Shown piece by piece: positions 33,950 to 64,000 of a stretch of DNA of 64,000 nt. The DNA is taken from assembly GCA_022707425.1 (NCBI GenBank), contig JAKJAQ010000001.1, forward strand, positions 69,089-133,088, read 5' to 3'. Source of the stretch: Candidatus Babelota bacterium (GTDB taxonomy: Bacteria; Babelota; Babeliae; Babelales; JACPOV01). Below the pieces are notes generated by a model, which saw nothing but the letters and a program-made list of their open reading frames with translations, made no database searches and had not been told where the DNA came from. How positions within the stretch are numbered: position 1 is the stretch's first letter; every line of letters starts with the position of its first letter. The position numbers and the translations under genes are program-made.

Positions 33950-34006
33950 TATAAGTGCGAAAAATGATATATTTTAGTTATGTATAACTTTAATAAGGAG
34001 TTTTTT

Positions 34007-41219: not shown

Positions 41220-41277
41220 AAAATTCATGGTATAACCATAACGAAAACACTCCGACCATTTTGGAAAGGAGCAGGTA

Positions 41278-46104: not shown

Positions 46105-46109
46105 GAACA

Positions 46110-46808: not shown

Positions 46809-46819
46809 TTTGAAGAGCT

Positions 46820-47815: not shown

Positions 47816-49014
47816 ATTTTGCATCATTTTTTACCACTATCAAACATTTTTTGTGGTTTTATAAACCAACTGAGGGTCGCTTTATTCATTTGGGGTTTGT
47901 TAATGAAGGTTTTAAGCGTTCAGGCATTCCGTGGGTAGAATATGATGGATCGCAACTCATTCCTTTCTGTGCGGCAGATGATATTGGCATTTATTGGTTA
48001 ATTCCACGCATAGCTCATGCGCTTGATTGTTCAGTTGAAAGGGCAATATGCATTTTTTTTTATGGTAGTGCTCTTTTTTCTTGGACTCTTGGGATAATAG
48101 GCTTTTTTTTACTCTATCGTTCTGTTGTGCAAAGATTTGTAGCGTTTATTGGTTTGAGTAGTTTGTTATTGTTAACGCTCTATATTGGTGATGTGTATAT
48201 TCTTTATTCTTCTGCCGCAATGGCTCTGATGCCATTGGGGATGTATCTTTCTTTAAATGATACAAAGCCCATTTATTGCGGAATCTTTGGCGTCTTTGCA
48301 GGATTATTTGTGGGCATTGATCATTTTGTTCGTTCATATTGTGCCGTGCCACCATTATTATTTGTTTTAATTTTATGTTGGTTTCAGCGCGATTGTGCAC
48401 GATCGAAAAAAGGTATTTTAACGTGCGCAATTGTTGTTGGTTTGATGAGTGTTGTTTTTTTTACTCATCATCAAAAAAATAGGTATCATGCGTATATTCA
48501 TCAAAGTTATCCAACTGCGCGACTTGATAACTACCAACATGGTATTTGGCACACGATATATTGTGGATTAGGTTTTTTTAAGTTTATGAATAAGCGAAAT
48601 ATAGAATGGAACGATTCATGTGCGCAAAACTTTATTGAGAGAATGAGGCAAAATAAAAATAATGTAGATTTAAGTGGTGAGGAGATATTAAAAACAGAAA
48701 TTATTAACATTATGAGCAATGAATCACATTTTATGGTGTTCTCACTATTTGGTAAAATCGGTGTGTTAATTTTGTTCTTGCTCTTGAGCGCACAAATCGG
48801 TTTAATTGCTGCTTTTATTGTTCGCAAACCATTGGTAATTGATCTGTCATTTTTTATTGCGTTTGTAACTAGTGCTGTTTTTCCTCTTCTTGCCATGCCT
48901 TTTTTAACGTATGGCCTTAGTTTTATTTCGTGTGCTGTGGTCTATAATATTGTGAGTATCAATTATGCGTATGCTCAATTAATACAAAAACGTTCTACAA
49001 ACTACGCACAATAA
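47812..49014 (+). CDS. Polytopic membrane protein, family B copy 1 (unknown; candidate lipid-linked-sugar transferase or polymerase)
   Basis: ATGA overlap with the GtrB-like gene. About 9-10 hydrophobic helices. GIPWVEYDGSQLIPFCAADDIGIYWLIP and HGIWHTIYCGLGFF are conserved in 51829-52986. Confidence 0.6.
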   Translation: MNFASFFTTIKHFLWFYKPTEGRFIHLGFVNEGFKRSGIPWVEYDGSQLIPFCAADDIGIYWLIPRIAHALDCSVERAICIFFYGSALFSWTLGIIGFFLLYRSVVQRFVAFIGLSSLLLLTLYIGDVYILYSSAAMALMPLGMYLSLNDTKPIYCGIFGVFAGLFVGIDHFVRSYCAVPPLLFVLILCWFQRDCARSKKGILTCAIVVGLMSVVFFTHHQKNRYHAYIHQSYPTARLDNYQHGIWHTIYCGLGFFKFMNKRNIEWNDSCAQNFIERMRQNKNNVDLSGEEILKTEIINIMSNESHFMVFSLFGKIGVLILFLLLSAQIGLIAAFIVRKPLVIDLSFFIAFVTSAVFPLLAMPFLTYGLSFISCAVVYNIVSINYAYAQLIQKRSTNYAQ

Positions 49015-51736: not shown

Positions 51737-51828
51737 CCAACGCTCCCGTTTTTTTAAAATTTTACTGTATTTAGTATAATTGATTTAAGTTAAAAAAAAT
51801 GAAACAAAAAAAGGTAATGGAGAAGAGA

Positions 51829-52986
51829 ATGAATATTATGGGATGTCGTTTTACGCATCTTTTAGCAACAATGGCAGGATACCAAAAAACAGGAATTTCA
51901 TTAATCGAATGGGATGGCAATCAATTATTACCAACATCTTGTGCTGATGATCTAGGCATTTATATTCTTCTGCCTAAACTTGCGACATTTTTTGGTCTTA
52001 GTATTGAGCAAGCAATTTCATATTTTTTTTATATTCTTCTTATTGTCCCAGCGGCGATTGGCATTATTGGTTTTTGTGCAGTGTATAAACACATTGTTCA
52101 GCGATTTATAGCTGTTTTTGGCGTGCTTTTACTTACGCTTTTTGCCAAAGCCGTAGGCGACGTATATTTGTGTTATAGCTCTAGTTTGCTTTTAATTCTT
52201 CCTTTTACCGTTTATTTTTTTGAAAACAGAAAGTTTGACAACCTTTTTTTGTTTTTTTGTCTGAGCATAGGTTTCATGGTAACAACATTGCAATTTATAC
52301 GATCGTATAGTGCTATTGCTCCATTAATTTTTTTTCTTATACTGATGCTCCTTGATATACAGCTTTCAATAATACGCAAGCTCATTTTTATTGGAACATG
52401 TGCAGTTGGTATGATGATGCCACTTTTCTATTTTAATGCTGTGCAGAATGAATCTTTGCGATATGCAATCCAAAATAATCTGATTGATACTAAGCAAGAA
52501 AAAAAACATCCACTGTGGCACACATTGTATGTAGGTTTTGGATTATTGCATTTCAAAAATGAACACCAGATCGCTTATGATGATTCATGCGCTGCCAAAA
52601 AAGTTCAATCAATTGATAATTCGATAGCTTACTGTTCGGCAGAATATGATGCGATATTAAAAAATGAAGTAATTAATCTTTTTAAATATCATTTTTTGTT
52701 TGTGTTGTTAACGCTTTTTGCAAAACTAGGAGTACTTTTTTATTTTTTATTGAAATTTGCAAATGTTGGCCTTATTGCAGCACTTTTTTATCCTAAATCA
52801 TGGGTTATTGAATTGGGTTTCTTCTTTGCACTGGCATTTAATTCATTATTCGTCTTTATTGCCATGCCAATTCATGAATATGCACTCGGGTTTATTGCAG
52901 CCGCTGCTCTTTATGGAATTGTAAGTATAAATCATGCACTGTCTAAGTTAAAACGAGTGAAATTGCCGCTATTCATATTTAGATAA
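51829..52986 (+). CDS. Polytopic membrane protein, family B copy 2
   Basis: GISLIEWDGNQLLPTSCADDLGIYILLP and HPLWHTLYVGFGLL align with 47812-49014. The ATG at 51829 (MNIMGCRF) follows GGAGAAGAG; the ORF-track ATG at 51799 is the alternative. Confidence 0.6.
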   Translation: MNIMGCRFTHLLATMAGYQKTGISLIEWDGNQLLPTSCADDLGIYILLPKLATFFGLSIEQAISYFFYILLIVPAAIGIIGFCAVYKHIVQRFIAVFGVLLLTLFAKAVGDVYLCYSSSLLLILPFTVYFFENRKFDNLFLFFCLSIGFMVTTLQFIRSYSAIAPLIFFLILMLLDIQLSIIRKLIFIGTCAVGMMMPLFYFNAVQNESLRYAIQNNLIDTKQEKKHPLWHTLYVGFGLLHFKNEHQIAYDDSCAAKKVQSIDNSIAYCSAEYDAILKNEVINLFKYHFLFVLLTLFAKLGVLFYFLLKFANVGLIAALFYPKSWVIELGFFFALAFNSLFVFIAMPIHEYALGFIAAAALYGIVSINHALSKLKRVKLPLFIFR

Positions 52987-53068
52987 TTATTTTTGTTTTT
53001 TTCAATTTGTTCTTCTTGCGACTCTAAATGAAGTATCTTAAAAGATGGGATATATAAGGGGGAATCGT

Positions 53069-54196
53069 ATGAATAATAGTAAACATATTGTTTGGATGTA
53101 TATTTTTTTAGTTTTTATTTTATCGCAAAAACATGTTTTTTGTATGGAACAGGAACATGATTCTGATGAAAATAAACGAAAAAAAGAAAAATTAATTACA
53201 GAGCAAAGACAAAAATTATTAAAAAAGCATGCTTCTTCACCTTCATTGAATGGTGATCCATTTAAATATATACAAGAAAATAATTATGAAAAATTAAAAG
53301 GGTTAGCTGTTTTAGATCCATCGCTTAGAAAATTTAATAAAGATGGTGAATCAACTTCTTTGTTGCTGGCTGCCATTATCAATGTAAAAAAACAAAGAAA
53401 AAAACAATCTACCGTGGCACGAGCAATTCTCGGCTTGATGCTTAAATGTCCAAACATAAATGAACAAATATTGAATGAAGCGCTCGATTACGCAAAAATC
53501 CAGGTGAATCTGAGTAAAGACGAAAAAACTAAGGCAACAATGAACGATGTTGTTTTTGCCTTAAACAGTGTTATTTCACTTTCTGCGATGAAAAAAACGG
53601 CTGAAAAAAAAATTAAAGAATTCAAAGAAGATCCCAAATCATTTGATGATTACAAAAAGCTCATTCAGGCAGAGCAAAATGTTGACAATAATAATAATGA
53701 AAATGTGCCGCGCAAAAGATCTGAAAGTGTGGTAAAAAAAATGAAAGAAGAAACAAACAAAGATAAGGAGAAATTTTTTAAATTTCTCCAAGATGGCCCG
53801 CCGATTGCTCAACAAAAAAAAGAAAAGAAAAACATAAAAAAAAGAGAGAAACAAGACCAAATCGTGCTGAATCAAGCAGAACATCGAAAAAATATATTTG
53901 ACCGACTCAGACTTCCATGGGGTAATTCAAACGAAAAAAAACTGGAAATGATAACTAAGCAATTACAGAATCAAAAAATAACATCGACTTTAAAGCACGA
54001 AAATGCGCCACCACCGGCCAATAGTATTATTTCATCAAGTTCTTTTTCGAATAGCAATCCTAATTTAACTATCGGTCTAAGTCATAGTGCTGATGAAAGT
54101 CCTAAAAGTTCAAGCTTGGAAAAATATTACGGTCAACCAGGAATAAAACAACCGAAAAAAAAGTTTGATCCTGATAACAATAATAATAATCAGTAA
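53069..54196 (+). CDS. Exported Lys/Glu/Asn-rich orphan protein (leader-ME class)
   Basis: The ATG at 53069 follows AAGGGGGA. Leader MNNSKHIVWMYIFLVFILSQKHVFC followed by MEQ. Low-complexity basic blocks (KKEKKNIKKREK) and a poly-Asn tail. Confidence 0.55.
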   Translation: MNNSKHIVWMYIFLVFILSQKHVFCMEQEHDSDENKRKKEKLITEQRQKLLKKHASSPSLNGDPFKYIQENNYEKLKGLAVLDPSLRKFNKDGESTSLLLAAIINVKKQRKKQSTVARAILGLMLKCPNINEQILNEALDYAKIQVNLSKDEKTKATMNDVVFALNSVISLSAMKKTAEKKIKEFKEDPKSFDDYKKLIQAEQNVDNNNNENVPRKRSESVVKKMKEETNKDKEKFFKFLQDGPPIAQQKKEKKNIKKREKQDQIVLNQAEHRKNIFDRLRLPWGNSNEKKLEMITKQLQNQKITSTLKHENAPPPANSIISSSSFSNSNPNLTIGLSHSADESPKSSSLEKYYGQPGIKQPKKKFDPDNNNNNQ

Positions 54197-54276
54197 TATT
54201 ATTGCGGCTAAAACTATAAAATTGATAAAGTACTATTACAAAAAACCGTATTGCACGCATTTTAGGGGGAAATTTA

Positions 54277-55740
54277 ATGATGTTAAATCGATCAAATATA
54301 GTTGTAATTATCATTACAGCTTTTTTAATTGTTGGCGCAACAATTGGTGTGTGGCAATGGCAACAACACAAAATGTCGCGTTCTATTTCAAAAATTGAGA
54401 ATGTAAAAAATATCGTTCCTGTAGTGGTAATAGGTTCAGGCCCAGCAGGATTAAGTGCTGCTTTGTATACCGCACGCGCCAAGTTTAAGACAATAATTTT
54501 CACTGGTGCACAACCGGGTGGTGATTTGACCGGTGTGCGTGAAATTGAAAACTGGCCAGGCAAAGAAAAACTTACGGGCATTCATGCTGTTGATGATTTG
54601 ACAGCGCAAGCGCAACATTTCGGTGCTGAAATTATCAATGACACCGTAAAAACAATTAATACTGATAAGTGGCCGTTTCAAATTACTACTGAAGATGGTA
54701 AAACAATAAATGCACTGGCTGTTGTAATTGCAGCGGGAGGAACGGCAAAAAAATTAAAAGTTCCTGGTGCTCTTGAATATTGGGGAAAAGGAGTGGGAAG
54801 TTGCACGATTTGTGAAGCGCCATTCCAAAAAGGTAAAGATGTGACGGTCATTGGTGGTGGTGACACGAGTGCGGATCGCGCATTGCAATTGTCTGCTTAC
54901 GCCAACAATGTTTATTTAGTGGTCAGGGAATCGCGTCTAACCGCATGCGGTACCGTGCAAGATTATTTAAAGAAAGCGCAAAATATTCATATTTTATTAA
55001 ATACGCAGTTATTAGAAATTAAAGGCAATGATGATGGTGTTTCTGGTATGGTGACCAAAGATGTTAAAACGGGAAAAGAGACCGAAACGCCTATTAAAGC
55101 ACTTTATTTTGCTATCGGCTACCAGCCAAATTCCGAATGGTTGAAGTCGTCGGTTCATACAGATAAAGAAGGTTTTATTGTTGTTGAGCAGTATTCCCAA
55201 AAAACAAATATCCCGGGAATCTATGCAGCAGGAAACGTTGCACTTTCAGATAAAGCCTATGGTAAAGCAGGTGTAGCAACGGGCAGTGGTGTAAAAGCAG
55301 GAATGGATGCAATTGAATTCCTGGAAAATATTGGTTTTGTTCCAGAAGTTGCTGAAAAAATGGAAGATCAATTTTTTATCGATGAACATGCACAAACGCC
55401 AATAAAAGGTATTACTACCAAAGAGGAACTTACACGCACCGTTAAAGAAAACCCACGAAAATTAGTGCTTGTTGATTTTTATGGCGAATATTGTCCGATG
55501 TGCCGCAAAATGATGCCAACATTGCAATCCCTTGCAAAAGATGAAGCACAAAGTCTTGTTATTTTAAAAGCTGAACAAACAAAATCGACCGTATTAACAA
55601 AAGAATTTAATGTTACTTCTGTTCCTTGTTTATTTCTTTTAAAAAATGGAAAGAAAATTTGGGAATGCAAAGACACCATAGAGGCGAATGTGCTTGAAAA
55701 GACCGTAAAGTCATACTGTTCTATTGGCAACGGAGAGTAA
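54277..55740 (+). CDS. trxB: Thioredoxin reductase fused to a C-terminal thioredoxin domain, with an N-terminal TM helix
   Basis: N-terminal helix IVVIIITAFLIVGATIGVW. FAD motif VVVIGSGPAGLSAALY, redox CTIC in GVGSCTICEAPF, and NADPH motif VIGGGDTSADRA. C-terminal Trx fold VLVDFYGEYCPMCRKMMP. AGGGGGA SD. Confidence 0.85.
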   Translation: MMLNRSNIVVIIITAFLIVGATIGVWQWQQHKMSRSISKIENVKNIVPVVVIGSGPAGLSAALYTARAKFKTIIFTGAQPGGDLTGVREIENWPGKEKLTGIHAVDDLTAQAQHFGAEIINDTVKTINTDKWPFQITTEDGKTINALAVVIAAGGTAKKLKVPGALEYWGKGVGSCTICEAPFQKGKDVTVIGGGDTSADRALQLSAYANNVYLVVRESRLTACGTVQDYLKKAQNIHILLNTQLLEIKGNDDGVSGMVTKDVKTGKETETPIKALYFAIGYQPNSEWLKSSVHTDKEGFIVVEQYSQKTNIPGIYAAGNVALSDKAYGKAGVATGSGVKAGMDAIEFLENIGFVPEVAEKMEDQFFIDEHAQTPIKGITTKEELTRTVKENPRKLVLVDFYGEYCPMCRKMMPTLQSLAKDEAQSLVILKAEQTKSTVLTKEFNVTSVPCLFLLKNGKKIWECKDTIEANVLEKTVKSYCSIGNGE

Positions 55741-55776
55741 TGTTATACGAATCAACAAACCATCAAATAGCCTTAA

Positions 55777-56139
55777 TTACTCTTTAGAAGCAGTAACGGT
55801 CAACGAATATGCTGAATTTGATTCATCATTAGCAGCTACGGTAATGGTTGCAGCATTGTTGAATGTTGCTTCGATTACTGGTTGGCTGATCAGTGATGAT
55901 CCATTTTCAGTTTTTGCAAAGACTTGTCCTGCAATCATGACTTTTTCATCATTTGCTTCAACAGTTAATTCGATCAAAGCAAAATCAGATTCAAAACTGA
56001 GCACTGACGGTTGATTTTCATCAAAAGAAGCTGATTGCAAAAAGCTGTTTTCATTCAAACTAAATGAAACGTCAAGTTTTGCAGCAAAAGCTGTAATGAA
56101 TGATGATGATAATACTAATGCGCTTAATAATTTTTTCAT
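55777..56139 (-). CDS. Small secreted beta-rich hypothetical protein
   Basis: Signal peptide MKKLLSALVLSSSFITAFA and an AAAGG SD. Preferred over the antisense ORF 55724-56014. Confidence 0.5.
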   Translation of the reverse strand: MKKLLSALVLSSSFITAFAAKLDVSFSLNENSFLQSASFDENQPSVLSFESDFALIELTVEANDEKVMIAGQVFAKTENGSSLISQPVIEATFNNAATITVAANDESNSAYSLTVTASKE

Positions 56140-56155
56140 TATTTACCTTTCAAAA

Positions 56156-57424
56156 TTAATAAATAGGAAATTGAGTGCACCATTTACGTACTTCCTTTTT
56201 GATGCTATTAAGATGGGTTGTTGATTCGTAATTTTTTAGTGCATCATCAATTAAATGAGCAATTGCTCTCACTTCTTTTTGTGCCATACCACGTGTTGTT
56301 AATGCAGGTGTGCCAATTCTAATACCGCTGGTAAGCCACGCAGGATTTGGATCAAACGGAATACAGTTGCGGTTAACAATTAAACCAACTGACTCAAGAA
56401 TTTGTTCTGCTTGTTTTCCATTGAGATGGTGAGCGCGTAAATCAAGAACAAATAAATGATTGTCAGTGCCACCTGAAACAATGCGATAATCTAATTTTTT
56501 AAATTCATCAGCCATTGCAGCAGCGTTGCGAACAATTTGTTGTTGATAAACCGCAAATTCTGGTTGTAAAGCCAGTTTAAAACCAACCGCTTTTGCTGCA
56601 ATTGCATGCATGAGTGGACCGCCTTGCATTCCCGGCATAGTTGCTTTATCAACTGCTTGAGCATGTGCTTTGGTGCACATTACTAAACCACCGCGTGGAC
56701 CGCGCAATGTTTTGTGAGTGGTACTGGTAACAAAATCGGCATGGGCAATAGGACTGGGATGAATTTTTGCCGCAATGAGTCCTGCAATGTGCGCGATATC
56801 TGCCATAAAAAGTGCGTTAACTTCTTTTGCAATCTGTGCAAATTGTGCAAAATCGATCGTGCGTGAATAAGCTGATGCGCCCGCGATAATAATGCGCGGT
56901 TTGTGCTCATGTGCCAATGTGCGAATTTGATCAAAATCGAGCTGTTCAGTGTCTTTATTGAGCGTATAATGAACGCTTTTGAATAATCTTCCAGAAAAAT
57001 TCACTTGATGACCATGGGTCAAATGACCACCTTCGGTTAAACTCATGCCTAAAATCGTATCGCCTGGATTGAGGGTAGCAAAATAAACTGCCATATTTGC
57101 TTGCGAGCCGGAATGTGGTTGAACATTGGCATGTTCTGCGCCAAAAAGTTCTTTGCATCGTTCTTGCGCTAGCAGCTCTGCTTTATCTACTACCTGACAA
57201 CCGCCATAATAACGTCTGCCTGGGTACCCTTCTGCATATTTATTGGTGAGCACGGAACCCAATGCATCTAATACTGCGCGCGGTGCATAATTTTCTGAAG
57301 CAATTAGGTTAAGCGTCTGTTCTTCGCGACGCATTTCTTCTTGTATGATCTCATAAAGTGCTTGATCAACAGCTGAAATTGTGCTTATTTTGGTCGATTT
57401 AGTTGATTTGTAGATATCATTCAT
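56156..57424 (-). CDS. glyA: Serine hydroxymethyltransferase
   Basis: NLIASENY, SGSQANMAVY and the PLP-lysine motif TTHKTLRGPRGG. Confidence 0.95.
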   Translation of the reverse strand: MNDIYKSTKSTKISTISAVDQALYEIIQEEMRREEQTLNLIASENYAPRAVLDALGSVLTNKYAEGYPGRRYYGGCQVVDKAELLAQERCKELFGAEHANVQPHSGSQANMAVYFATLNPGDTILGMSLTEGGHLTHGHQVNFSGRLFKSVHYTLNKDTEQLDFDQIRTLAHEHKPRIIIAGASAYSRTIDFAQFAQIAKEVNALFMADIAHIAGLIAAKIHPSPIAHADFVTSTTHKTLRGPRGGLVMCTKAHAQAVDKATMPGMQGGPLMHAIAAKAVGFKLALQPEFAVYQQQIVRNAAAMADEFKKLDYRIVSGGTDNHLFVLDLRAHHLNGKQAEQILESVGLIVNRNCIPFDPNPAWLTSGIRIGTPALTTRGMAQKEVRAIAHLIDDALKNYESTTHLNSIKKEVRKWCTQFPIY

Positions 57425-57567
57425 CGGTTTTAATCTGTTTTTTTAATTAAAATATAACTTAAGGATAAAACGGCCACGCAATTTTGTCATTCTTTTATGA
57501 ACATTGCAGAAAAAAATTAAAAATGAATATCAGGGAAGAAAAAGAAGATAGTATATAATTTGTCCAT

Positions 57568-57596
57568 TTGTCAGATTGTAATTAATTTGATAAATT
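57568..57596 (+). promoter_or_regulatory. Possible sigma70-type promoter for the small-protein array
   Basis: TTGTCA (57568-57573), a 17-nt spacer, then TAAATT (57591-57596). Confidence 0.3.
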
Positions 57597-57646
57597 GGTA
57601 ATGATTAACAGTTATGGGATTAATTGTAATAAATGGTGAAGGTAAA

Positions 57647-57916
57647 ATGTTGTGTTTTGTATTTATTATATCTGCGGTTACTTTGTGTTTAAACATGAAT
57701 GCAATGGATACTAATTGGCAGGAAAAAAAACTTCAAGATCAAAAGAAATTGTATTTAAAGGCTGCAAATCAATTTTTTTCCGCACATCAAGAGTTTGCAA
57801 ATACACCCCATGGTCAGCAAGTGCTCGAATGTGGTCAATTTGCCTATGACCAAGCAAAAAACAAAGAAAGCTCATTGCAAGATAGATTAGAAAAAAAAGA
57901 AACAAACAAAGAATAA
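57647..57916 (+). CDS. Small exported protein, tandem array member 1
   Basis: The ATG at 57647 follows GGTGAAGG. Leader MLCFVFIISAVTLCLNMNA followed by MD. Lys/Glu/Gln-rich helical body. Confidence 0.55.
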   Translation: MLCFVFIISAVTLCLNMNAMDTNWQEKKLQDQKKLYLKAANQFFSAHQEFANTPHGQQVLECGQFAYDQAKNKESSLQDRLEKKETNKE

Positions 57917-57938
57917 TAATCATAAATCGGAGGATGAT

Positions 57939-58262
57939 ATGTTTAAATTTATTTTGATTTCAATTACTGGCATTACGTTTGGATTGTCACTAAACGCGAT
58001 GGAGAATAATAAGAACGGCTCGCCAATAAAAGATAAGCAAAATGCCTTCAACAGATGTATGGCTGCGGAATGGAAAAAGCAGGCTAACTCTGTAGCAAAA
58101 TTCGCTGATAAAATTAATAACAATTCAACTATCTCGGCTGCTGAGAAAGCTCTCTGCCTTGGTGGATTGAAAGAAGATTTCAAATCTAAAATAAATAAAG
58201 CCGATAGTTATGCTGCTGGATTTGATGCTCGTCGTCAAGAAACTAATGACAAAAAAGATTAA
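57939..58262 (+). CDS. Small exported protein, tandem array member 2
   Basis: GGAGGA SD. Leader MFKFILISITGITFGLSLNA followed by MENNKNGSPIKDKQ. Clear paralog of member 3. Confidence 0.65.
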   Translation: MFKFILISITGITFGLSLNAMENNKNGSPIKDKQNAFNRCMAAEWKKQANSVAKFADKINNNSTISAAEKALCLGGLKEDFKSKINKADSYAAGFDARRQETNDKKD

Positions 58263-58293
58263 TTATATTGTTTGTAACATAAAGGATTATTTA

Positions 58294-58617
58294 ATGTTTA
58301 AATTTAATTTAGTTTTAATGGCTGGTCTTGTGTGTGGGTTGTCGCTGAGCGCAATGGAAAAGAAAGAAGGCTCGCCATTAAAAGACCAGCAATTTATGCG
58401 CTTGGAAAAAATGCGCAAAAAATTTCGTAATGAAGTCAAGATATTAGGAAGTTTTGCTGGTGCAATTACTAATGATCCTAATTTGCCTGAAGCTGAGAAA
58501 GTTCAATCTACTGATGCATTAAAAGAAAAATATAAAGATCGCGTAGAAAAATGTGAACAATTTGAAGCTGCCATAAATGTTCGTCGCAAAATCCTTGATG
58601 ACGATAAAAAAGCTTAA
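58294..58617 (+). CDS. Small exported protein, tandem array member 3
   Basis: The ATG at 58294 follows AAAGGA. Leader MFKFNLVLMAGLVCGLSLSA followed by MEKKEGSPLKDQQ. The ORF-track start at 58210 is an upstream extension overlapping member 2. Confidence 0.65.
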   Translation: MFKFNLVLMAGLVCGLSLSAMEKKEGSPLKDQQFMRLEKMRKKFRNEVKILGSFAGAITNDPNLPEAEKVQSTDALKEKYKDRVEKCEQFEAAINVRRKILDDDKKA

Positions 58618-58655
58618 AAACGAAACAGGGAATAATATTTAAAGAAGGGATTTAT

Positions 58656-58913
58656 ATGTTTAAATTTTTTTCATTTTTAGTTTTAAGTAGTTTTATAGCT
58701 ACAACGGTTTGCATGGAACAAAACACTCAAGAAAAAAGTGCACGTGAGCTCTCAAATGGAGCCTTTAAAACATTAGCAAAGCCTTCTGCTCATCCGTTTA
58801 TTTTTATAGTATCTCGGGGCAAGGCGCAATGGCTTTACGAAAAAGCCAATAATCAAATTTTGAATGACTTTGAACACAAAGATCGTAAAAACGATCCAAT
58901 AAAATATGAATAA
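58656..58913 (+). CDS. Small exported protein, tandem array member 4
   Basis: GAAGGGA SD. Leader MFKFFSFLVLSSFIATTVC followed by MEQ. Confidence 0.6.
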   Translation: MFKFFSFLVLSSFIATTVCMEQNTQEKSARELSNGAFKTLAKPSAHPFIFIVSRGKAQWLYEKANNQILNDFEHKDRKNDPIKYE

Positions 58914-58932
58914 ATACACCAAGAAAGATGAT

Positions 58933-59226
58933 ATGTTGACAATTAGATTGTTAATGCTGACTATTTTATTTCCGTATGCATGTCTTGCTATGGAATTGAA
59001 GCCGAATAATAAAAATCCGATTGATCCGCAAATGGCGAAATTAGCATACAAAGCATCGAGAAATTTGAATTTAGGCCATGGACTTATCAATTTGAGTTCT
59101 CGGGAGGATGATCCGGAAATCAAAAAGTCACAAATGAGTTATGCTTATAAAAAATTTGAGCGAGCTAACTATTGTGTTGATCAAATAAAAGAGCGCGTCA
59201 ATTATCCGGAAAGTCGAAAAGAGTAG
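58933..59226 (+). CDS. Small exported protein, tandem array member 5
   Basis: Leader MLTIRLLMLTILFPYACLA followed by MEL. The start at 58933 gives the 19-aa leader seen in the siblings. The ORF-track ATG at 58906 is the alternative. Confidence 0.5.
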   Translation: MLTIRLLMLTILFPYACLAMELKPNNKNPIDPQMAKLAYKASRNLNLGHGLINLSSREDDPEIKKSQMSYAYKKFERANYCVDQIKERVNYPESRKE

Positions 59227-59251
59227 AAAGATTACTTGAAAGGAACATGCA

Positions 59252-59542
59252 ATGTTTCAATTTTTTTTAGTTGTGTTGATAAGCATTGGTTGTTGTTTAC
59301 CTTTGATAGGTATGGAAAATGTTGAAAATAATACGCAGAGATCAAAGGTTTCTTCTTCTCAATCATCTCCTAAGGCGCTAGCCTATGAAAAATTCAATGA
59401 AAAGTTGAAAGCTTTGGCAGAAGGTAATGCGACACAAGCTCAAGTAAAAGAAGCTAATCTAGAATACGAACGAGAAAGAGCAAAAGAGGACGAAGCGCGA
59501 AGCGAGCGTGTCCGAAGAAATCTTTTTTCTGACAGAGAATAG
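59252..59542 (+). CDS. Small exported protein, tandem array member 6
   Basis: AAAGGA SD. Leader MFQFFLVVLISIGCCLPLIG followed by MEN. Charged helical body. Confidence 0.6.
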   Translation: MFQFFLVVLISIGCCLPLIGMENVENNTQRSKVSSSQSSPKALAYEKFNEKLKALAEGNATQAQVKEANLEYERERAKEDEARSERVRRNLFSDRE

Positions 59543-59694
59543 CTCTGAGCGAATAATAAAGAAAATTAATTGTGTTTAAAAAGCTCTGAGTTTAAAATAA
59601 CGCATTATTTTGCTCTTTCAAACTTTTTTGTTTGTTGTTATACTCAAAAAATAAGTCTAAAGAATACGGTTTTTTTCAGGTGAAAGGGCACAGC

Positions 59695-60255
59695 ATGATT
59701 GCAGCAGGAGATTTTCGAAAAGGTTCCAAAATCCTGTACAAAGGTGAACCGTACATGGTGGTCGATTTTCAATGGACCAAACCTGGAAAAGGCGGTGCCT
59801 ATGTTAAAGCAAAGATGAGGAACATGATCACCGGATTGGTGCATGAAGATACATTTCGCTCTGGTGAAAAACTCCCTGAACCTGATCTTGAATATCATCA
59901 AATGCAATATTTATACCGCGAAGATGATATATTTCACTTCTTAGATCAAGAAACATTCGAACAACATTCTTTTAATAAAAAACAAATTGCTGAAGTGCTT
60001 CCTTATTTGAAAGAAGAAATTGTGTACACAGTTCTTTTCTTTTCAGAACGACCAATTACAGTCACACCACCACTTTTCATTGAATTAAAAGTAACTGAAA
60101 CACCACCAGGTGTCCGGGGTGATACCGCACAAGGTGGTGCTACTAAACCGGCGACCGTTGAAACTGGCCATGTGTTAAATGTGCCTCTTTTTATCAATGA
60201 AGGTGATGTAATAAAAGTGGATACTCGCGATGGCAGCTACATTGAACGTGTTTAA
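59695..60255 (+). CDS. efp: Elongation factor P
   Basis: MIAAGDFRKGSKILYKGEPYMVVDFQWTKPGKGGAYVKAKMRN. 186 aa from the ATG at 59695; the ORF-track start at 59632 adds 21 atypical residues. Confidence 0.9.
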   Translation: MIAAGDFRKGSKILYKGEPYMVVDFQWTKPGKGGAYVKAKMRNMITGLVHEDTFRSGEKLPEPDLEYHQMQYLYREDDIFHFLDQETFEQHSFNKKQIAEVLPYLKEEIVYTVLFFSERPITVTPPLFIELKVTETPPGVRGDTAQGGATKPATVETGHVLNVPLFINEGDVIKVDTRDGSYIERV

Positions 60256-60277
60256 GCTTAACAACAAAGGTGGGGCT

Positions 60278-60796
60278 GTGGACGATCAAATTACTCCTGG
60301 CGCGTGCTCAGATTTAGAAATTGATGATCGTGAGCCTGAACAGTGGCGATCATTTGGGGCGCTTTCGATTCGGGCAAAACGGTCTTTGATGTTTCATATT
60401 TTGTATGCGGCAGATTCATATGAATACACAATTTCGGTCCAATCAATTGTTGATATGTTCAACAAAGGATTTGAGCTTGATATTCCTGTAGAAAGCGATT
60501 TAGTACAAACATCATCAGCGATCATTGAAAATCGTGCGGAACTTGATTCTCGCTATCAACCCTATTTAACCAATTGGCGCGCAGAACGCCTTGGAGTGAG
60601 TACAAAACTTATTTTGCGATATGCAATTTGGGAAATGATTAATACTCAAACATCACCGTCGATTGTAATTAACGAGGCGGTTGAGCTAGCAAAATGTTAT
60701 GCAGAGCGTGATGCGTATAAATTTATTAATGGCATTTTAGATGAAGTGCTTAAAACTTTACCTTCTCAATCCAGCGAGCAAGTAAAAGCTCAATAA
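60278..60796 (+). CDS. nusB: Transcription antitermination factor NusB (with an N-terminal extension)
   Basis: RAKRSLMFHILYAAD...RLGVSTKLILRYAIWEM...INEAVELAKCYAERDAYKFINGILD. The start is uncertain: a GTG at 60278 after AAAGGTGG, or an ATG at 60230 inside the efp 3' end. Confidence 0.75.
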   Translation: MDDQITPGACSDLEIDDREPEQWRSFGALSIRAKRSLMFHILYAADSYEYTISVQSIVDMFNKGFELDIPVESDLVQTSSAIIENRAELDSRYQPYLTNWRAERLGVSTKLILRYAIWEMINTQTSPSIVINEAVELAKCYAERDAYKFINGILDEVLKTLPSQSSEQVKAQ

Positions 60797-60798
60797 TA

Positions 60799-61611
60799 TT
60801 AAATGATCAAATGTGCAGGAACAGATTCCTCCTGCATGGTAAGATTAATTTCATGCACATCAACAATTAGACCATCAAGAATGGCACTGCTTTTTTCTAT
60901 AAATGATTCTTTATCACTTGTTACAAAGAATTCAACCGTTGGTTGATTGTTTTCATCTGTCGTCAACGTTGAAAGTATTGTATCTTCAGCAGAAATAATA
61001 CAAACGTCTGGGCCCATAATGTGTGCGATCTGTGTACGCACTAAAGCATAATGCGTGCAACCTAAAATAAGAGTATCAACCTTATTTTGTTTCAATGATT
61101 CTAGATAATGTTCAAGTAAGCTATTAATGTGAGAATGATTTCTTTCTTGCTGCTCAAGTGCAGGTACTAATTGTGGGCAGGCTTGTTCCACAATCTCAAA
61201 CCGCGGATTTAATGATAACAATGCATTTTTATGCGCATGTTGTCGAATCGATGCGGTGGTTGCAATCACGCCAATTTTATTATTTTTTGTTATTTTTGCT
61301 GCAGTGCGTACAACCGAATCTACCACGCCCAAGAAAGGCAGCTTCACAAATGAATTACACAGAAAGTCATAAGCAATAGCAGATGAAGTGTGGCATGCAA
61401 TCACACAAAGATCAATTTCTTGTTGGGCAAAAAAAGAAACTATTTGATGTGAAAATTGCTTAATCTGCTGAGGTGTTTTGTTTCCATAGGGCAAATTTGC
61501 GGTATCGGCAAGGTAAAGATAATGCGCTGGATAATGGGCAATTAGTTTATTTAGGATTGTTAATCCTCCAAGGCCCGAATCAAAAACGCCGATTTTTTTA
61601 TATTGTTTCAT
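60799..61611 (-). CDS. murI: Glutamate racemase
   Basis: IGVFDSGLGGLT, IACHTSS and LGCTHY (the two catalytic Cys contexts). The stop lies 2 nt from the convergent nusB stop. Confidence 0.9.
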   Translation of the reverse strand: MKQYKKIGVFDSGLGGLTILNKLIAHYPAHYLYLADTANLPYGNKTPQQIKQFSHQIVSFFAQQEIDLCVIACHTSSAIAYDFLCNSFVKLPFLGVVDSVVRTAAKITKNNKIGVIATTASIRQHAHKNALLSLNPRFEIVEQACPQLVPALEQQERNHSHINSLLEHYLESLKQNKVDTLILGCTHYALVRTQIAHIMGPDVCIISAEDTILSTLTTDENNQPTVEFFVTSDKESFIEKSSAILDGLIVDVHEINLTMQEESVPAHLII

Positions 61612-61615
61612 TCAT

Positions 61616-62890
61616 TCAACCATTAGTTAATAGATACCAAAAGCAATCTAGGATTGAAAATTTACTCGCAGGTCTTTCATGCTCAACTAAAAACTTTTCG
61701 TTAAAATACGTGCGGTATGCTTCGGGCAATTGTTCAAAATCCTCTTTTTGTTGTCTTTCTTGCTGTTGATCTAAAGCCCATAATAGAATTTTTTTGTGAT
61801 TGGTTGTTTTGAATTGTTCATTTAAGAATTTGATATTTTCATCTGATAGATTTTCGAATAAATTTTTCATAAAAACGAAAATATGACTAAAATGCCAAAT
61901 ATCGATGCCGCCGTTTGATGATAATGATGCAAAAATTGGAGAATTTCTTTGAAGATCAAAAGAACGAATAAAATTATGTTGAGGTTCCAAAACTGAAACA
62001 ATTGCACTTTTTTCTGGCTTAATTAGGTAAATCTTACCCTCTGAAAGAGCGGTGAGTATATTATGTGTGTCACTCCAGCGCAAATTAGTTGGTTTTTTCA
62101 GTTTTATTTCAGTTTCATTATCGCTAACATCAAAAGTTTTATATTTTTTGATTGATACATTATTATTTTCCTCTGCAACATAAGCTAATATTGTGCCTGG
62201 GCCATTAGAAGTGATATGCCCAATGGTTTTTTGATCATCATTAATAATATTTTCTTGGTGCATAGAGTCATAAAGGGCGAAAATACCGTTATTTTTTGTT
62301 CCAATGAGTAAATGGTTGTCATTCCAGTATAATGAGGTAGGTAATGCATTTACTTGGTGTACAGCTATTTCATTTATCCTGTTTTTAGGATAAACACGGA
62401 CCTGATTTATTTCATTCATGATGAGAGCAAATTTTTCCCCTGAAGGGTGCCAACTTATTCCAGCTACTGTTTTAGGAAGTTCCAATAGATGTGAAACTTT
62501 TAATAAATCATGAGCATTTTCAGATTGCCAAAGTTTTATTTCCTTACCCCCAACCGTGATGAGATTGTTTTCCGTAGGGCTATAGGAAAGAAATGAAATT
62601 GGAGATGGATGGTTGTAATGAGACTCATCAAAGTTTACCGATTTTTCTGCAAAGTTTAATTCTGCTTTTGTAAAATCATATGTTTTTTCTTGAGGAATGA
62701 TTTGGGTTCCATTGTGATTTATACCTATATTGAATTCATCAATATGGGAATAATCACAAAATAGAGGTTGTGGGCTTACCGTTGCTATAATGTTCTGTTT
62801 TGCTTGTTCTGTTAATTGTTCTGATTCTTTTTCCATCGATTGTACATTAAAAAATAGGCTTAACAGAGCAATAAAAAATATATAATTCAT
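61616..62890 (-). CDS. Exported WD40/beta-propeller repeat protein (leader-ME class)
   Basis: Leader MNYIFFIALLSLFFNVQS followed by MEK. Repeats include LSYSPTENNLITVGGKEIKLWQ, ISWHPSGEKFALIM and FASLSSNGGIDIWH. AAGGAA SD. 4 nt upstream of murI. Confidence 0.65.
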   Translation of the reverse strand: MNYIFFIALLSLFFNVQSMEKESEQLTEQAKQNIIATVSPQPLFCDYSHIDEFNIGINHNGTQIIPQEKTYDFTKAELNFAEKSVNFDESHYNHPSPISFLSYSPTENNLITVGGKEIKLWQSENAHDLLKVSHLLELPKTVAGISWHPSGEKFALIMNEINQVRVYPKNRINEIAVHQVNALPTSLYWNDNHLLIGTKNNGIFALYDSMHQENIINDDQKTIGHITSNGPGTILAYVAEENNNVSIKKYKTFDVSDNETEIKLKKPTNLRWSDTHNILTALSEGKIYLIKPEKSAIVSVLEPQHNFIRSFDLQRNSPIFASLSSNGGIDIWHFSHIFVFMKNLFENLSDENIKFLNEQFKTTNHKKILLWALDQQQERQQKEDFEQLPEAYRTYFNEKFLVEHERPASKFSILDCFWYLLTNG

Positions 62891-62897
62891 TATTTCC

Positions 62898-64000
62898 TTA
62901 ATCTAAATGTACGATGCCTTTTAATAATTTGTTTATTATTAATTGTAACACAGAGTAATTATCTTTTTCACGAACTAGGTTATGTATGCGTAGCATTTGT
63001 TGCATATCTTTAGGCAGGCTATTAAAACTATCAACTACCTGTTTATCTTTTTTAGGATTAATAACTAATGGGCCATTTTTGAAAACCTTTTTCAACAGTT
63101 CTTGTTGTTTTGTAGACAGAGAATAATAAGGATTTTCGTTTACAAGAGCCATCCTTTCTATATCCCATAATTTAATATTTCCATTTACTGATCCGGAAAT
63201 TAGACGAGTGCCTTCATAATTAAAATCAATATCAGCTTTTTCATTGAGATTAAAACGTCCGATACGTGAATTATTTGCAGGGTTCCATACATTTACCACA
63301 CCATTTTGTGTCGCCGTTGCAATAATATTGTTTTGATGATTCCATTTGATGTGTGTTATGGTATCGTTATGATCGCCAATTTTTTTTGATGCTTCACTAG
63401 TGATTTGATAGAGCACAAGATCTTTGTTGTGTGCGACAACAAAATTTTCATTATCAGGACTTGATGCGATCAATGCCGTTTGCGCTCCAACAATCGATTT
63501 AATGAAGGTAAGAAGATTGTTTTTTTCTTCGAAAATATAATAACGGCCTTCGTTATTGCAGAGTATGACATATTTTTCGTTCCATTCGGCGCAAATTATA
63601 TTGTTCAATCCGCGAACGGAAGCTATAAATTCATTATTTTCTGTATTCCATATCTTAACAGAATTTTTTTTATGACTAACTGTTGCAAATTGTTTGCCAT
63701 TTGGACTGAATACAAAATTATCAATTGAGTCTTGAGTATTTATTTGTCTGGTTGGAAATACGTTATACAGTTCATCGTGTTGTGACGAAAGTGTCCATGT
63801 TGATGGATTATCATTTTCAAATGCAGCAATAATATTGTTGCCATCAGGGTGCCATGCGACTGGTCCAATAGTACCTTGTTTGCCAAAAAAGCTCCGATTA
63901 TTCCACAATAAACTATCTTCATTATTCTCTAAAAGCGAAAATGCAGATGATTGTTCGGTAGTAATAGCAATTTGATTGCCGTTAGGTTGCCAATTAATTG
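62898..64000 (-). CDS. WD40/beta-propeller repeat protein, 5'-partial (open to the right window edge)
   Basis: The ORF-track start at 63908 is a TTG. The frame stays open to nt 64000 and encodes a further repeat (...NWQPNGNQIAI...). Other repeats: VAWHPDGNNIIAAF, FSPNGKQFATVSHKKNSVKIWN, IATATQNGVVNVWN and LISGSVNGNIKLWD. Confidence 0.7.
   Translation of the reverse strand, partial: INWQPNGNQIAITTEQSSAFSLLENNEDSLLWNNRSFFGKQGTIGPVAWHPDGNNIIAAFENDNPSTWTLSSQHDELYNVFPTRQINTQDSIDNFVFSPNGKQFATVSHKKNSVKIWNTENNEFIASVRGLNNIICAEWNEKYVILCNNEGRYYIFEEKNNLLTFIKSIVGAQTALIASSPDNENFVVAHNKDLVLYQITSEASKKIGDHNDTITHIKWNHQNNIIATATQNGVVNVWNPANNSRIGRFNLNEKADIDFNYEGTRLISGSVNGNIKLWDIERMALVNENPYYSLSTKQQELLKKVFKNGPLVINPKKDKQVVDSFNSLPKDMQQMLRIHNLVREKDNYSVLQLIINKLLKGIVHLD

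What the first reader, a model, noticed from the sequence alone, without database searches (positions are those of the whole stretch)
57647..59542. Tandem array of six small exported paralogs (85-107 aa), most starting MFKF/MFQF
Seen in the sequence: six consecutive same-strand ORFs sit within 1.9 kb. Most have a recognisable SD. Each has a 19-20-residue hydrophobic leader: MFKFILIS..., MFKFNLVL..., MFKFFSFL..., MFQFFLVV..., MLCFVFII... and MLTIRLLM.... Each leader is followed by Met-Glu or Met-Asp and then a 65-85-residue Lys/Glu/Gln/Asn-rich, probably helical, body. Members 2 and 3 are clearly homologous (GSP(I/L)KD(K/Q)Q ... AEK ... RR). The others have diverged outside the leader.

Inference: this is a rapidly diversifying family of small secreted proteins, which is the pattern expected for host-interaction factors or an antigenic or decoy family. 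I recognise no known domain.
Basis: partly seen in the sequence, partly recalled or inferred. Interest (0 to 1): 0.7.

Follow-up and report, generated by a model that had tools for sequence, protein, structure and literature searches.

The report
Six small exported hairpin-protein genes
A protist-infecting Dependentiae bacterium carries a tight row of six real genes for tiny, fast-changing, probably exported two-helix proteins of no known family, and their leader ends in an unusual Met-Glu junction shared by about half of this bacterium's exported proteins.

Summary
Six same-strand ORFs of 85-107 aa lie between glyA and efp. Each has a 19-20 aa hydrophobic leader, then Met-Glu or Met-Asp, then a polar body.

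The window matches Candidatus Dependentiae bacterium ADurb.Bin331. Published accounts describe this phylum as strictly intracellular in protists.

The ORFs are real genes. The array is syntenic in three lineages, and non-synonymous change is significantly rarer than synonymous change (dN/dS 0.2-0.4, against 0.03-0.10 in flanking genes).

They evolve fast:
- m1 is absent from one lineage and the m3 slot is replaced there.
- The right half of the array was exchanged between lineages.
- Between two strains, SNPs are 33 non-synonymous to 6 synonymous, against 7 to 38 in the flanks.

No family matches in Pfam, NCBIfam, PHROGs or PDB. Searches of billions of proteins return only these lineages. AlphaFold predicts a disordered linker plus a two-helix hairpin.

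Only m2 and m3 are demonstrable paralogs. All members also share a C-terminal [KR][DE] end.

The small-residue|Met-Glu/Asp junction is clade-wide: 7 of 15 signal-peptide-like ORFs in the window, 0 of 192 in other bacteria.

Export and host targeting are inferred. dN/dS never exceeds 1.

The parts
57568..57596 (+). Sigma-70-like promoter candidate (TTGTCA-17-TAAATT with TG) just upstream of m1; probable start of the array transcript.
   Evidence: Consensus scan. It lies in a 60-nt block that is 93% identical to lineage B, where the block directly precedes the m2 orthologue. Function not tested.
57647..57916 (+). m1, 89 aa: leader MLCFVFIISAVTLCLNMNA, then MD, a polar body and the end ...TNKE. 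Public gene calls start it at 57614.
   Evidence: Present only in lineage A; lineage B has a roughly 340-bp gap here. Between strains it has 7 non-synonymous and 0 synonymous SNPs. Its C-terminal helix is weakly similar to C2 and C3 (z 4.7-4.8).
57939..58262 (+). m2, 107 aa: leader MFKFILISITGITFGLSLNA, then ME; family F2; strong GGAGGA SD.
   Evidence: Orthologues in lineage B (63% identity) and lineage C (60%). pN<pS at P=2e-9 for A versus C. AlphaFold predicts a hairpin, helices 29-60 and 67-106, at pLDDT 73-90.
58294..58617 (+). m3, 107 aa: leader MFKFNLVLMAGLVCGLSLSA, then ME; tandem paralog of m2.
   Evidence: 36% identity to m2, blastp 8e-22. The 71-nt leader DNA is 75% identical to that of m2, at a 355-nt spacing. 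In lineage B the slot holds an unalignable gene, Bb.
58656..58913 (+). m4, 85 aa: leader MFKFFSFLVLSSFIATTVC, then ME; family F4.
   Evidence: Orthologues in B (56%) and C (38%) share the block YEKANN..L. pN<pS at P=1e-4 for A versus C. Between strains it has 7 non-synonymous and 0 synonymous SNPs.
58933..59226 (+). m5, 97 aa: leader MLTIRLLMLTILFPYACLA, then ME; family F5. Public gene calls start it at 58906, overlapping the end of m4.
   Evidence: Orthologues in B (65%) and C (C4, 48%). Lineage C has an extra paralog, C3, with an m5-like leader (hhalign E=8.5e-5). pN<pS at P=5e-4.
59252..59542 (+). m6, 96 aa: leader MFQFFLVVLISIGCCLPLIG, then ME; family F6; the last gene before efp.
   Evidence: Orthologues in B (91%) and C (64%). 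pN<pS at P=1e-8 for A versus C. AlphaFold predicts a disordered linker (residues 14-39) and a hairpin (helices 40-56 and 62-93) at pLDDT above 90. The A-B synonymous divergence of only 0.10 indicates recent recombination.
59543..59694 (+). m6-efp spacer with a promoter-like site at 59617-59644. It is highly conserved, so efp probably has its own promoter. No terminator-like site on the + strand was found anywhere in 57300-59800, so read-through from the array is possible.
   Evidence: 87-97% DNA identity to lineage B. Promoter and terminator scan.

Best explanation
This is an operon-like row of six genes in a Dependentiae bacterium (an intracellular parasite of protists). The genes encode very small pre-proteins built to one plan:
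1. a 19-20 aa Sec-type signal peptide;
2. a cleavage junction of the form small residue | Met-Glu/Asp;
3. a short disordered linker rich in Asn, Gln and Ser;
4. an antiparallel two-helix hairpin of 50-75 residues;
5. a charged C-terminal end, [ST]x[KR][DE].

Most likely course of events: the genes are transcribed together from a promoter next to glyA, and each is translated from its own ribosome-binding site. The proteins are exported through Sec and cut by signal peptidase I. The free hairpins then act outside the cytoplasm as binding modules, on the cell surface or released towards the host.

Their exposed surfaces change quickly. The set is reshuffled by tandem duplication (m2/m3), gain and loss (m1), replacement (the m3 slot) and recombination between lineages (m4-m6).

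Shown here: the genes, their conservation and purifying selection, their fast evolution and turnover, the signal-peptide anatomy, the predicted hairpins, and the absence of known relatives.

Inferred: Sec export and the cleavage position, any passage beyond the periplasm, and the target (host or envelope).
For: Gene reality:
- The array is syntenic (glyA | array | efp-nusB-murI-WD40) in three lineages.
- Non-synonymous change is rarer than synonymous change in all four orthologous families (P 1e-4 to 1e-9). This also holds within the leaders of F2 and F6 (P 0.007 and 0.0003), so the leaders are translated.

Export signal:
- The N-terminus is hydrophobic and the body hydrophilic.
- Position -1 is A, G, C or S in 16 of 16 proteins. 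Position -3 is L, V, T, C or M. Pro or Gly sits at -4 to -6 in most members.
- SD-like runs precede the leader ATG, not the internal Met.

Fold: AlphaFold gives hairpins for m2 (pLDDT 73-90) and m6 (above 90).

Fast evolution:
- dN/dS is 0.2-0.76, against 0.03-0.10 in housekeeping flanks.
- Strain-level SNPs are 33 non-synonymous to 6 synonymous in the array, against 7 to 38 in the flanks (Fisher P=1.5e-10).
- There is an m1 indel and an unalignable m3 slot.
- Lineage B's m4-m6 are closer to lineage A although the flanks place B with C.

Restricted distribution: searches of 5.8 and 1.84 billion proteins return only these lineages.

Shared plan:
- 13 of 16 proteins end in [KR][DE], against 0.029 expected by chance per sequence.
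- The first 32 nt of the leader are repeated in m2, m3, m4 and m6.

Lifestyle: the organism is Candidatus Dependentiae bacterium ADurb.Bin331. In the cultured relative Chromulinavorax, 44% of coding sequences carry signal peptides and this set is enriched in ORFans (PMC6561590).
Against: - There is no expression, proteomic or localisation data.
- No signal-peptide predictor was available. Cleavage is inferred from the -3/-1 rule.
- Met at +1 is unusual for signal peptidase I substrates.
- Dependentiae have an outer membrane, so Sec export alone reaches only the periplasm. No outer-membrane route is known for these proteins.
- dN/dS stays below 1, so an arms race is not demonstrated.
- The structure models rest on alignments of only 3-4 sequences, and a two-helix hairpin is a generic prediction for such sequences.
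- The locus sits among housekeeping genes, not in a recognisable effector island.
Confidence: 0.55

Rival explanations
1. The hairpins are resident periplasmic or envelope proteins. They could be Spy/CpxP/ZraP-like stress chaperones or small structural components, serving the bacterium's own envelope rather than acting on the host.
For: - Sec signal peptides alone deliver proteins to the periplasm.
- The F2 profile gave a weak hit to a protein made of LTXXQ (Spy/CpxP-type) repeats (P0023, E=4e-5 summed over four repeats).
- Foldseek lists ZraP and other periplasmic hairpins among its non-significant matches.
- The locus lies among housekeeping genes.
Against: - Profile-profile comparison with one LTXXQ repeat gives only 23% probability over 30 columns.
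- There is no Pfam LTXXQ hit even at E<=1, and no LTXXQ motif.
- Envelope housekeeping proteins are not expected to show near-neutral strain-level change, gene gain and loss, and restriction to three close lineages.
- The neighbouring standard-signal-peptide protein (55777-56139) shows 0 non-synonymous to 5 synonymous SNPs.
Confidence: 0.22
2. The N-terminal hydrophobic segment is not cleaved. It anchors the proteins in the inner membrane, making them small single-pass membrane proteins with the hairpin in the periplasm.
For: - Met at +1 is atypical for signal peptidase I sites.
- Several leaders (m1, m6) lack a basic n-region.
- AlphaFold models the leader as a helix, at low confidence.
Against: - The hydrophobic cores are only about 12-16 residues, short for a membrane span.
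- Every member has a small residue at -1, and most have Pro or Gly at -4 to -6, which is the classic cleavage-region anatomy.
- The junction is invariant while the rest diverges, which fits a processing site.
Confidence: 0.12
3. The real start codon is the internal Met of 'Met-Glu', the upstream hydrophobic stretch is untranslated T-rich DNA, and the products are small cytoplasmic proteins.
For: - Gene callers sometimes pick the internal Met. The second WD40 protein of the L003 strain was called from 'MHNEH...', although an in-frame leader MQHLLVIFFLSFFQVHA precedes it.
- AT-rich DNA readily encodes Phe, Leu and Ile.
Against: - SD-like runs precede the leader ATG, and none precedes the internal ATG.
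- Leader codons are under purifying selection (F2 pN/pS 0.20, P=0.007; F6 0.26, P=0.0003).
- The leader plus junction occurs 11 times in 64 kb, against about 6 per Mb elsewhere.
Confidence: 0.04
4. The ORFs are chance or decaying open frames in AT-rich intergenic DNA.
For: - m1 is lineage-specific and shows 7 non-synonymous to 0 synonymous strain differences.
- No family or database relatives exist outside the clade.
Against: - Frames, lengths, leaders and termini are kept in three lineages despite 35-65% protein divergence. No stop or frameshift was seen in the loci translated.
- Third codon positions diverge more than the first two.
- Each gene has its own SD.
Confidence: 0.03

Closest known systems
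Predicted secretome of Dependentiae (Chromulinavorax destructans; Deeg et al. 2019, PMC6561590)
   Same: Same phylum and lifestyle. [quoted passage not shown] The present array is a concrete example of such ORFan signal-peptide genes.
   Different: In the passages I searched, that paper describes no tandem hairpin family, no Met-Glu cleavage junction and no C-terminal motif. I found no sequence relatives outside three close lineages.
Phytoplasma SVM / SAP effector genes (Pfam SVM_signal, PF12113). The comparison rests on my own knowledge, not on a paper read here.
   Same: Small (about 100 aa) Sec-dependent proteins of an obligate intracellular bacterium. The signal peptide is conserved while the mature part is highly variable, and the genes are clustered. 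Some members (SAP54/phyllogen) are two-helix coiled coils that bind host proteins.
   Different: No sequence similarity and no SVM_signal hit at E<=1. Phytoplasmas lack an outer membrane, so Sec export is secretion; here a second membrane must be crossed. The phytoplasma genes sit in mobile units, whereas this array sits in a conserved housekeeping context.
FadA adhesin family of Fusobacterium (own knowledge, plus Foldseek matches)
   Same: A pre-protein with an approximately 18-aa signal peptide and a roughly 110-aa mature antiparallel helical hairpin that acts on host cells; several paralogs per genome.
   Different: Foldseek matches to FadA are non-significant (E about 2-3, rmsd about 15 Å). 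No Pfam hit. No sequence similarity.
Spy/CpxP/ZraP (LTXXQ) periplasmic hairpin chaperones
   Same: Small, signal-peptide-bearing, helical-hairpin periplasmic proteins. There is a weak profile hit of family F2 to an LTXXQ-repeat protein.
   Different: No LTXXQ motif, no Pfam hit, and only 23% hhalign probability over 30 columns. Evolution here is far faster and the distribution far narrower.
WXG100 / Esx proteins
   Same: Helical hairpins of about 100 aa encoded in tandem; EsxA appears among the non-significant fold matches.
   Different: WXG100 proteins have no signal peptide and use type VII secretion. No WXG100 family appeared in the Pfam scan at E<=1.

Membership tests
Sec / signal peptidase I (type I) signal peptide | Short n-region and a hydrophobic h-region of about 10-15 residues at the extreme N-terminus, followed by a polar mature part | tested here: met
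   Mean hydropathy of the first 20 residues is +1.5 to +2.3, against -1.0 to -1.4 for the rest, in all six. The same holds in the 10 orthologues.
Sec / signal peptidase I (type I) signal peptide | Small uncharged residue at -1, small or aliphatic residue at -3, and often a helix breaker at -4 to -6 | tested here: met
   With cleavage taken to fall before Met-Glu/Asp: -1 is A, G, C or S in 16 of 16; -3 is L, V, T, C or M; Pro or Gly lies at -4 to -6 in most (read from the sequences).
Sec / signal peptidase I (type I) signal peptide | Positive call by a trained predictor (SignalP, DeepTMHMM) or an experimentally mapped cleavage | not testable with these tools
   No predictor or proteomic data were available.
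Lipoprotein (signal peptidase II) signal | Lipobox [LVI][ASTVI][GAS]C with Cys at +1 | tested here: not met
   Position +1 is Met in all 16. Where a Cys is present (m4, Bc, C5) it is at -1 and is preceded by V, which is not a lipobox residue.
Phytoplasma SVM signal family (PF12113) | Match to the SVM_signal profile | tested here: not met
   The Pfam scan of all six at E<=1 lists no such hit.
LTXXQ / Spy-CpxP-ZraP family (PF07813) | Match to the LTXXQ profile and presence of LTXXQ motifs | tested here: not met
   No Pfam hit at E<=1. No LTXXQ motif in the sequences. hhalign to one repeat of P0023 gives probability 23% over 30 columns.
FadA adhesin family | Match to the FadA profile, or a significant structural match to FadA | tested here: not met
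   No FadA family in the Pfam scan at E<=1. Foldseek E is 1.8-3.4 with rmsd about 15 Å.
WXG100 / Esx | Match to the WXG100 profile | tested here: not met
   No WXG100 family in the Pfam scan at E<=1. These proteins also carry hydrophobic N-terminal leaders, whereas WXG100 proteins, to my knowledge, do not.
One paralogous family comprising all six genes | Statistically supported sequence similarity of the mature parts | tested here: inconclusive
   Only m2/m3 are significant (z=19; E=3e-13). hhalign between subfamily profiles gives below 1% probability, except F5 versus C3. Against that, the C-terminal 34 residues show excess cross-family similarity (20% of 105 pairs with z>2), there is a shared C-terminal [KR][DE] end, and leader DNA is shared.

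The most novel reading that the evidence does not exclude
The invariant junction 'small residue | Met-Glu/Asp' plus an Asn/Gln-rich acidic linker may be a clade-specific second sorting signal. It would play a role like the PEXEL motif of Plasmodium or the lipoprotein export signal of Bacteroidetes, marking a fast-evolving, host-directed subset of Sec substrates (these hairpins, the WD40 propellers and several ORFans) for transport beyond the periplasm or for a particular fate in the host. One possibility is an N-terminus that mimics a eukaryotic NatB-type Met-Glu start. On this reading the six-gene array is a diversifying battery of hairpin effectors that use the signal, and the conserved [ST]x[KR][DE] C-terminus is a second recognition element.
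Probability: 0.15. Interest if true: 0.75.

Novelty: new variant of a known kind. Interest (0 to 1): 0.4.

Why it matters
Dependentiae are widespread, mostly uncultured parasites of protists. How they act on their hosts is largely unknown, and their large predicted secretomes consist mainly of proteins without known function.

This locus gives a well-delimited, comparably organised set of tiny exported proteins. Their turnover and exchange between lineages can be followed gene by gene.

It also exposes a simple sequence signature, small residue | Met-Glu/Asp after the signal peptide. In this clade the signature splits exported proteins into two classes. In the small sample available, it marks the fast-evolving ones.

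If the signature proves to be a sorting signal, it would offer a way to list candidate host-directed proteins in these genomes from sequence alone. If not, the array remains an ordinary example of lineage-specific secreted ORFans.

Tried and rejected

2. Spy/CpxP lead, rejected as membership. The exhaustive F2 profile search hit an LTXXQ-repeat protein and several FN3-repeat proteins. The FN3 hits are artefacts of summing weak matches over repeats. The LTXXQ similarity did not hold up in profile-profile comparison.

3. RNA-level constraint on m6, rejected. DNA of m6 is 93-98% identical between lineages A and B (dS 0.10), so I suspected a structured RNA. Rfam finds nothing. The A-C and B-C comparisons have normal synonymous divergence (pS about 0.6). 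The gene trees conflict with the flanking genes. Recombination explains all of this.

4. Wider searches for related arrays mostly failed:
- The glyA scan of genome contigs was flooded by universal SHMT motifs and returned no close relative.
- The m6 scan of metagenome contigs found nothing.
- The efp scan returned only relatives at 66% identity or less, none with arrays.
- The last protein search, with the WD40 protein, was run at too strict a threshold and returned only the protein itself.

5. 'Met-Glu class means effectors, standard signal peptides mean housekeeping': not clean. A RING-finger protein and STELLO-like glycosyltransferases carry standard junctions.

6. Secretion machinery nearby: none found. 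The upstream operon encodes glycan synthesis, not a secretion system.

7. Walking further along the genome failed, because the window's end proteins are not on record.

8. Literature searches found no description of the motif or the family.
Full report
**What is there.** Between glyA (56156-57424, minus strand) and efp (about 59632-60255, plus strand) lie six plus-strand ORFs:
- m1 57647-57916 (89 aa)
- m2 57939-58262 (107 aa)
- m3 58294-58617 (107 aa)
- m4 58656-58913 (85 aa)
- m5 58933-59226 (97 aa)
- m6 59252-59542 (96 aa)

Gaps between genes are 19-38 nt. Five of the six have a clear purine-rich SD-like run 5-9 nt upstream; the one before m5 is weak. No terminator-like site on the + strand was found in the region scanned (57300-59800). 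A sigma-70-like site sits at 57568-57596.

**Source organism.** The six proteins are on record as hypothetical proteins BWY54_00057 to BWY54_00062 of Candidatus Dependentiae bacterium ADurb.Bin331. Dependentiae are described as strictly intracellular bacteria of protists. In the cultured Chromulinavorax destructans, 44% of coding sequences carry a predicted signal peptide, and that set is enriched in ORFans (PMC6561590; PMC12172432 abstract). The window also encodes signal-peptide-bearing WD40 propellers, a RING-finger protein, STELLO-like glycosyltransferases and a glycan-synthesis operon.

**Are the genes real?** Yes. Protein searches led to two further lineages with the same synteny, glyA | small-gene array | efp-nusB(-murI-WD40 where the contig reaches).
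- Lineage B is a JGI contig (L002) with five genes.
- Lineage C is a set of Logan contigs (L085 to L090) with five genes.

Orthology is clear for four families:

| Window gene | Lineage B | Lineage C | Identity to window gene (B, C) |
|---|---|---|---|
| m2 | a | C1 | 63%, 60% |
| m4 | c | C2 | 56%, 38% |
| m5 | d | C4 | 65%, 48% |
| m6 | e | C5 | 91%, 64% |

In codon alignments of A against C, non-synonymous differences are significantly rarer than synonymous ones in all four families (P 1e-4 to 1e-9). This also holds inside the leaders of F2 and F6 (P 0.007 and 0.0003), so the leaders are translated. m1 is known only from lineage A and shows no sign of constraint, with 7 non-synonymous and 0 synonymous strain differences. 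It does carry every hallmark of the family.

**How fast do they evolve?** Much faster than their neighbours.
- Window versus lineage B gives dN/dS of 0.33 (m2), 0.76 (m4), 0.39 (m5) and 0.43 (m6). The values for trxB, glyA, efp and nusB are 0.03-0.10.
- Window versus a 99.0%-identical strain (L003) gives 33 non-synonymous and 6 synonymous SNPs in the array. The combined count for trxB, orf120, glyA, efp and nusB is 7 and 38 (Fisher P=1.5e-10). The array ratio does not exceed the neutral expectation (binomial P=0.26).
- Content varies. Lineage B lacks m1, with a roughly 340-bp gap right after the conserved promoter block. It holds an unalignable gene (Bb) in the m3 slot. Lineage C has an extra m5-like paralog, C3.
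- Housekeeping flanks place B with C (glyA 95%, efp 98% protein identity). Yet B's m4, m5 and especially m6 are closer to A. For m6 the figures are 91% against 64% protein identity, 93% third-position identity and dS 0.10. The right half of the array has therefore been exchanged between lineages. This also disposes of my passing idea that m6 overlaps a conserved RNA, since Rfam finds nothing.

'Rapidly evolving with turnover' is supported. 'Diversifying (positive) selection' is not demonstrated.

**Are they one family?**
- By sequence of the mature parts, only m2 and m3 are demonstrable paralogs (36% identity; E=3e-13; shuffle z=19).
- Profile-profile comparison between the subfamilies gives probabilities below 1%, except m5 family versus C3.
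- Three things argue for a common origin or a common constraint. First, the opening 32 nt of the leader (ATGTTTAAATTT...) recur in m2, m3, m4 and m6 at 69-75% identity, with roughly 355-nt spacing.
- Second, 13 of 16 proteins end in [KR][DE]-COOH and 10 of 16 in [ST]x[KR][DE]-COOH. Chance values by shuffling are 0.029 and 0.0024 per sequence. The motif occurs in every sequence group and in none of the other signal-peptide-like ORFs listed for the window.
- Third, the C-terminal 34 residues show an excess of cross-family similarity. Mean z is 0.81, and 20% of 105 pairs have z>2.

I read the array as one old tandem family split into at least five subfamilies, but this remains inconclusive.

**What do the proteins look like?**
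- AlphaFold (shallow alignments) predicts for m2 a low-confidence leader helix, then a hairpin of helices 29-60 and 67-106 at pLDDT 73-90.
- For m6 it predicts a disordered linker (residues 14-39) and a hairpin of helices 40-56 and 62-93 at pLDDT above 90.
- Foldseek against PDB gives nothing with E<0.1. The matches are generic hairpins such as FadA, EsxA, Der p 5, ZraP and the MexA hairpin.
- No Pfam, NCBIfam or PHROGs family matches.
- An exhaustive HMMER search with the F2 profile over 1.84 billion representatives finds only the family itself, repeat-protein artefacts and a weak LTXXQ-repeat hit. That hit does not survive profile-profile comparison (23% probability).

**The leader and the Met-Glu junction.**
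- With cleavage placed before Met, position -1 is A, G, C or S in all 16 proteins. Position -3 is L, V, T, C or M, and Pro or Gly lies at -4 to -6 in most. This is the anatomy of a signal peptidase I site. Position +1 is never Cys, so these are not lipoproteins.
- The junction is not special to the array. Five larger proteins in the window have it, including a WD40 propeller. So do both WD40 proteins of lineage C.
- With a stricter definition of a signal-peptide-like ORF, 7 of 15 in the window and 7 of 9 in a lineage-C locus have small-M-[ED]. The figure is 0 of 192 in about 2 Mb of loci from other bacteria (Fisher P=2e-9). One looser example occurs in another Dependentiae MAG (L030).
- In the L003 strain, the second WD40 protein has 'A|MH', and the gene caller started it at that internal Met. 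So Met at +1 is the constant, and annotation can lose the leader.
- Other exported proteins of the window use ordinary junctions: the C11 peptidase, the RING-finger protein and the STELLO-like enzymes.
- In the small stretch where strains can be compared, proteins with a Met at +1 have 41 non-synonymous and 7 synonymous SNPs (the array plus three others, including the WD40 protein whose junction reads Met-His). The one standard-signal-peptide protein has 0 and 5.
- I found no description of this motif in the searchable literature. Its meaning is unexplained.

**Most likely function.** The six genes are co-transcribed small Sec substrates. After leader removal they are free two-helix binding modules outside the cytoplasm. 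Three observations make a surface or host-facing role the best guess (confidence 0.55): the intracellular lifestyle, the restriction to three close lineages, and the near-neutral strain-level change with gene turnover and allele exchange. The rivals are:
- a periplasmic or envelope role (0.22);
- uncleaved membrane anchors (0.12);
- translation starting at the internal Met (0.04);
- noise ORFs (0.03).

No step beyond the sequence-level facts has been tested experimentally.

**Comparison with what is known.** In kind, this resembles the ORFan-rich predicted secretome already reported for Dependentiae. In organisation it resembles the phytoplasma SVM/SAP effector genes, which are small Sec-dependent proteins with a conserved signal peptide, a variable body and in some cases a two-helix fold. 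It is not a member of SVM, FadA, LTXXQ or WXG100, since each profile test failed. I rate it a new variant of a known kind. It is an unrecognised family with two unreported signatures, the Met-Glu junction and the charged C-terminal motif, inside a known phenomenon. Interest is moderate at 0.4. It would be higher if the junction proves to be a sorting signal.

Noticed in passing
window 23182-23991(-), 24060-24809(-), 32564-33949(+), 53069-54196(+), 61616-62890(-); L085 5451-6740(-) and 6755-8068(-): The hydrophobic leader followed by small residue | Met-Glu is shared by larger, unrelated proteins (four ORFans and WD40 beta-propellers). It is found in 7 of 15 signal-peptide-like ORFs in the window and 0 of 192 in about 2 Mb from other bacteria. 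This looks like a clade-wide class of export signal. I found no description of it in the literature searched.
   Followed up: partly
C-termini of m1-m6 (window 57905-57913, 58251-58259, 58606-58614, 58902-58910, 59215-59223, 59531-59539) and of the orthologues in L002 and L088: 13 of 16 array proteins end in [KR][DE]-COOH, and 10 of 16 in [ST]x[KR][DE]-COOH. Chance values are 0.029 and 0.0024 per sequence. The motif is absent from the other signal-peptide-like ORFs listed for the window. Its meaning is unknown.
   Followed up: partly
window 58809-59700 versus L002 about 5180-6070: DNA of m4 (3' half), m5, m6 and the m6-efp spacer is 83-98% identical between lineages A and B. For m6, dS is 0.10 against 0.7-1.4 in the flanks. 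Yet the housekeeping genes place B with C. This indicates a recent recombination tract between lineages.
   Followed up: yes
L003 14688-15953(-), which extends past window position 64000: The second WD40 protein of the L003 strain has the leader MQHLLVIFFLSFFQVHA followed by Met-His rather than Met-Glu. The public gene call starts at that internal Met and so drops the leader. Annotations in this clade may systematically miss signal peptides.
   Followed up: partly
window 33980-35017(+): A 345-aa protein has a signal-peptide-like N-terminus (…STVVFA|DNN, an ordinary junction) and a C-terminal RING-finger domain (Pfam zf-RING_2, E=1.6e-6). This is a eukaryote-like E3-ligase candidate effector.
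   Followed up: no
window 35408-36475(-), 36475-37311(-), 38827-39684(-): Two signal-peptide-bearing proteins match STELLO glycosyltransferases. A third ORF (38827-39684) has a similar N-terminal sequence but was not scanned against Pfam.
   Followed up: no
window 39825-49014(+) and 48995-51736(-): A long operon encodes glycosyltransferases, three SAM methyltransferases and an asparagine synthase, followed by a 913-aa glycosyltransferase. This is probably a surface-glycan synthesis cluster.
   Followed up: no
window 55777-56139(-): A 120-aa protein with a standard signal peptide (…ITAFA|AKLD) is conserved in all three lineages (69-76% identity). It has 0 non-synonymous and 5 synonymous strain SNPs, in contrast to the adjacent array.
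   Followed up: partly
window 54277-55740(+): A thioredoxin reductase is fused to a C-terminal thioredoxin domain and preceded by an N-terminal hydrophobic segment.
   Followed up: no
window 61616-62890(-): The WD40 protein with a Met-Glu junction has no relative at E<=1e-10 other than its own cluster among 5.8 billion proteins. Its strain SNPs are 4 non-synonymous and 0 synonymous.
   Followed up: partly
whole window: The window matches contig MWBD01000002 of GCA_002068925.1 exactly over 48294-63318, and that contig ends there. Another window gene (10079-11524) lies on a separate 4-kb contig of that assembly. The window therefore comes from a more contiguous assembly of the same strain.
   Followed up: yes
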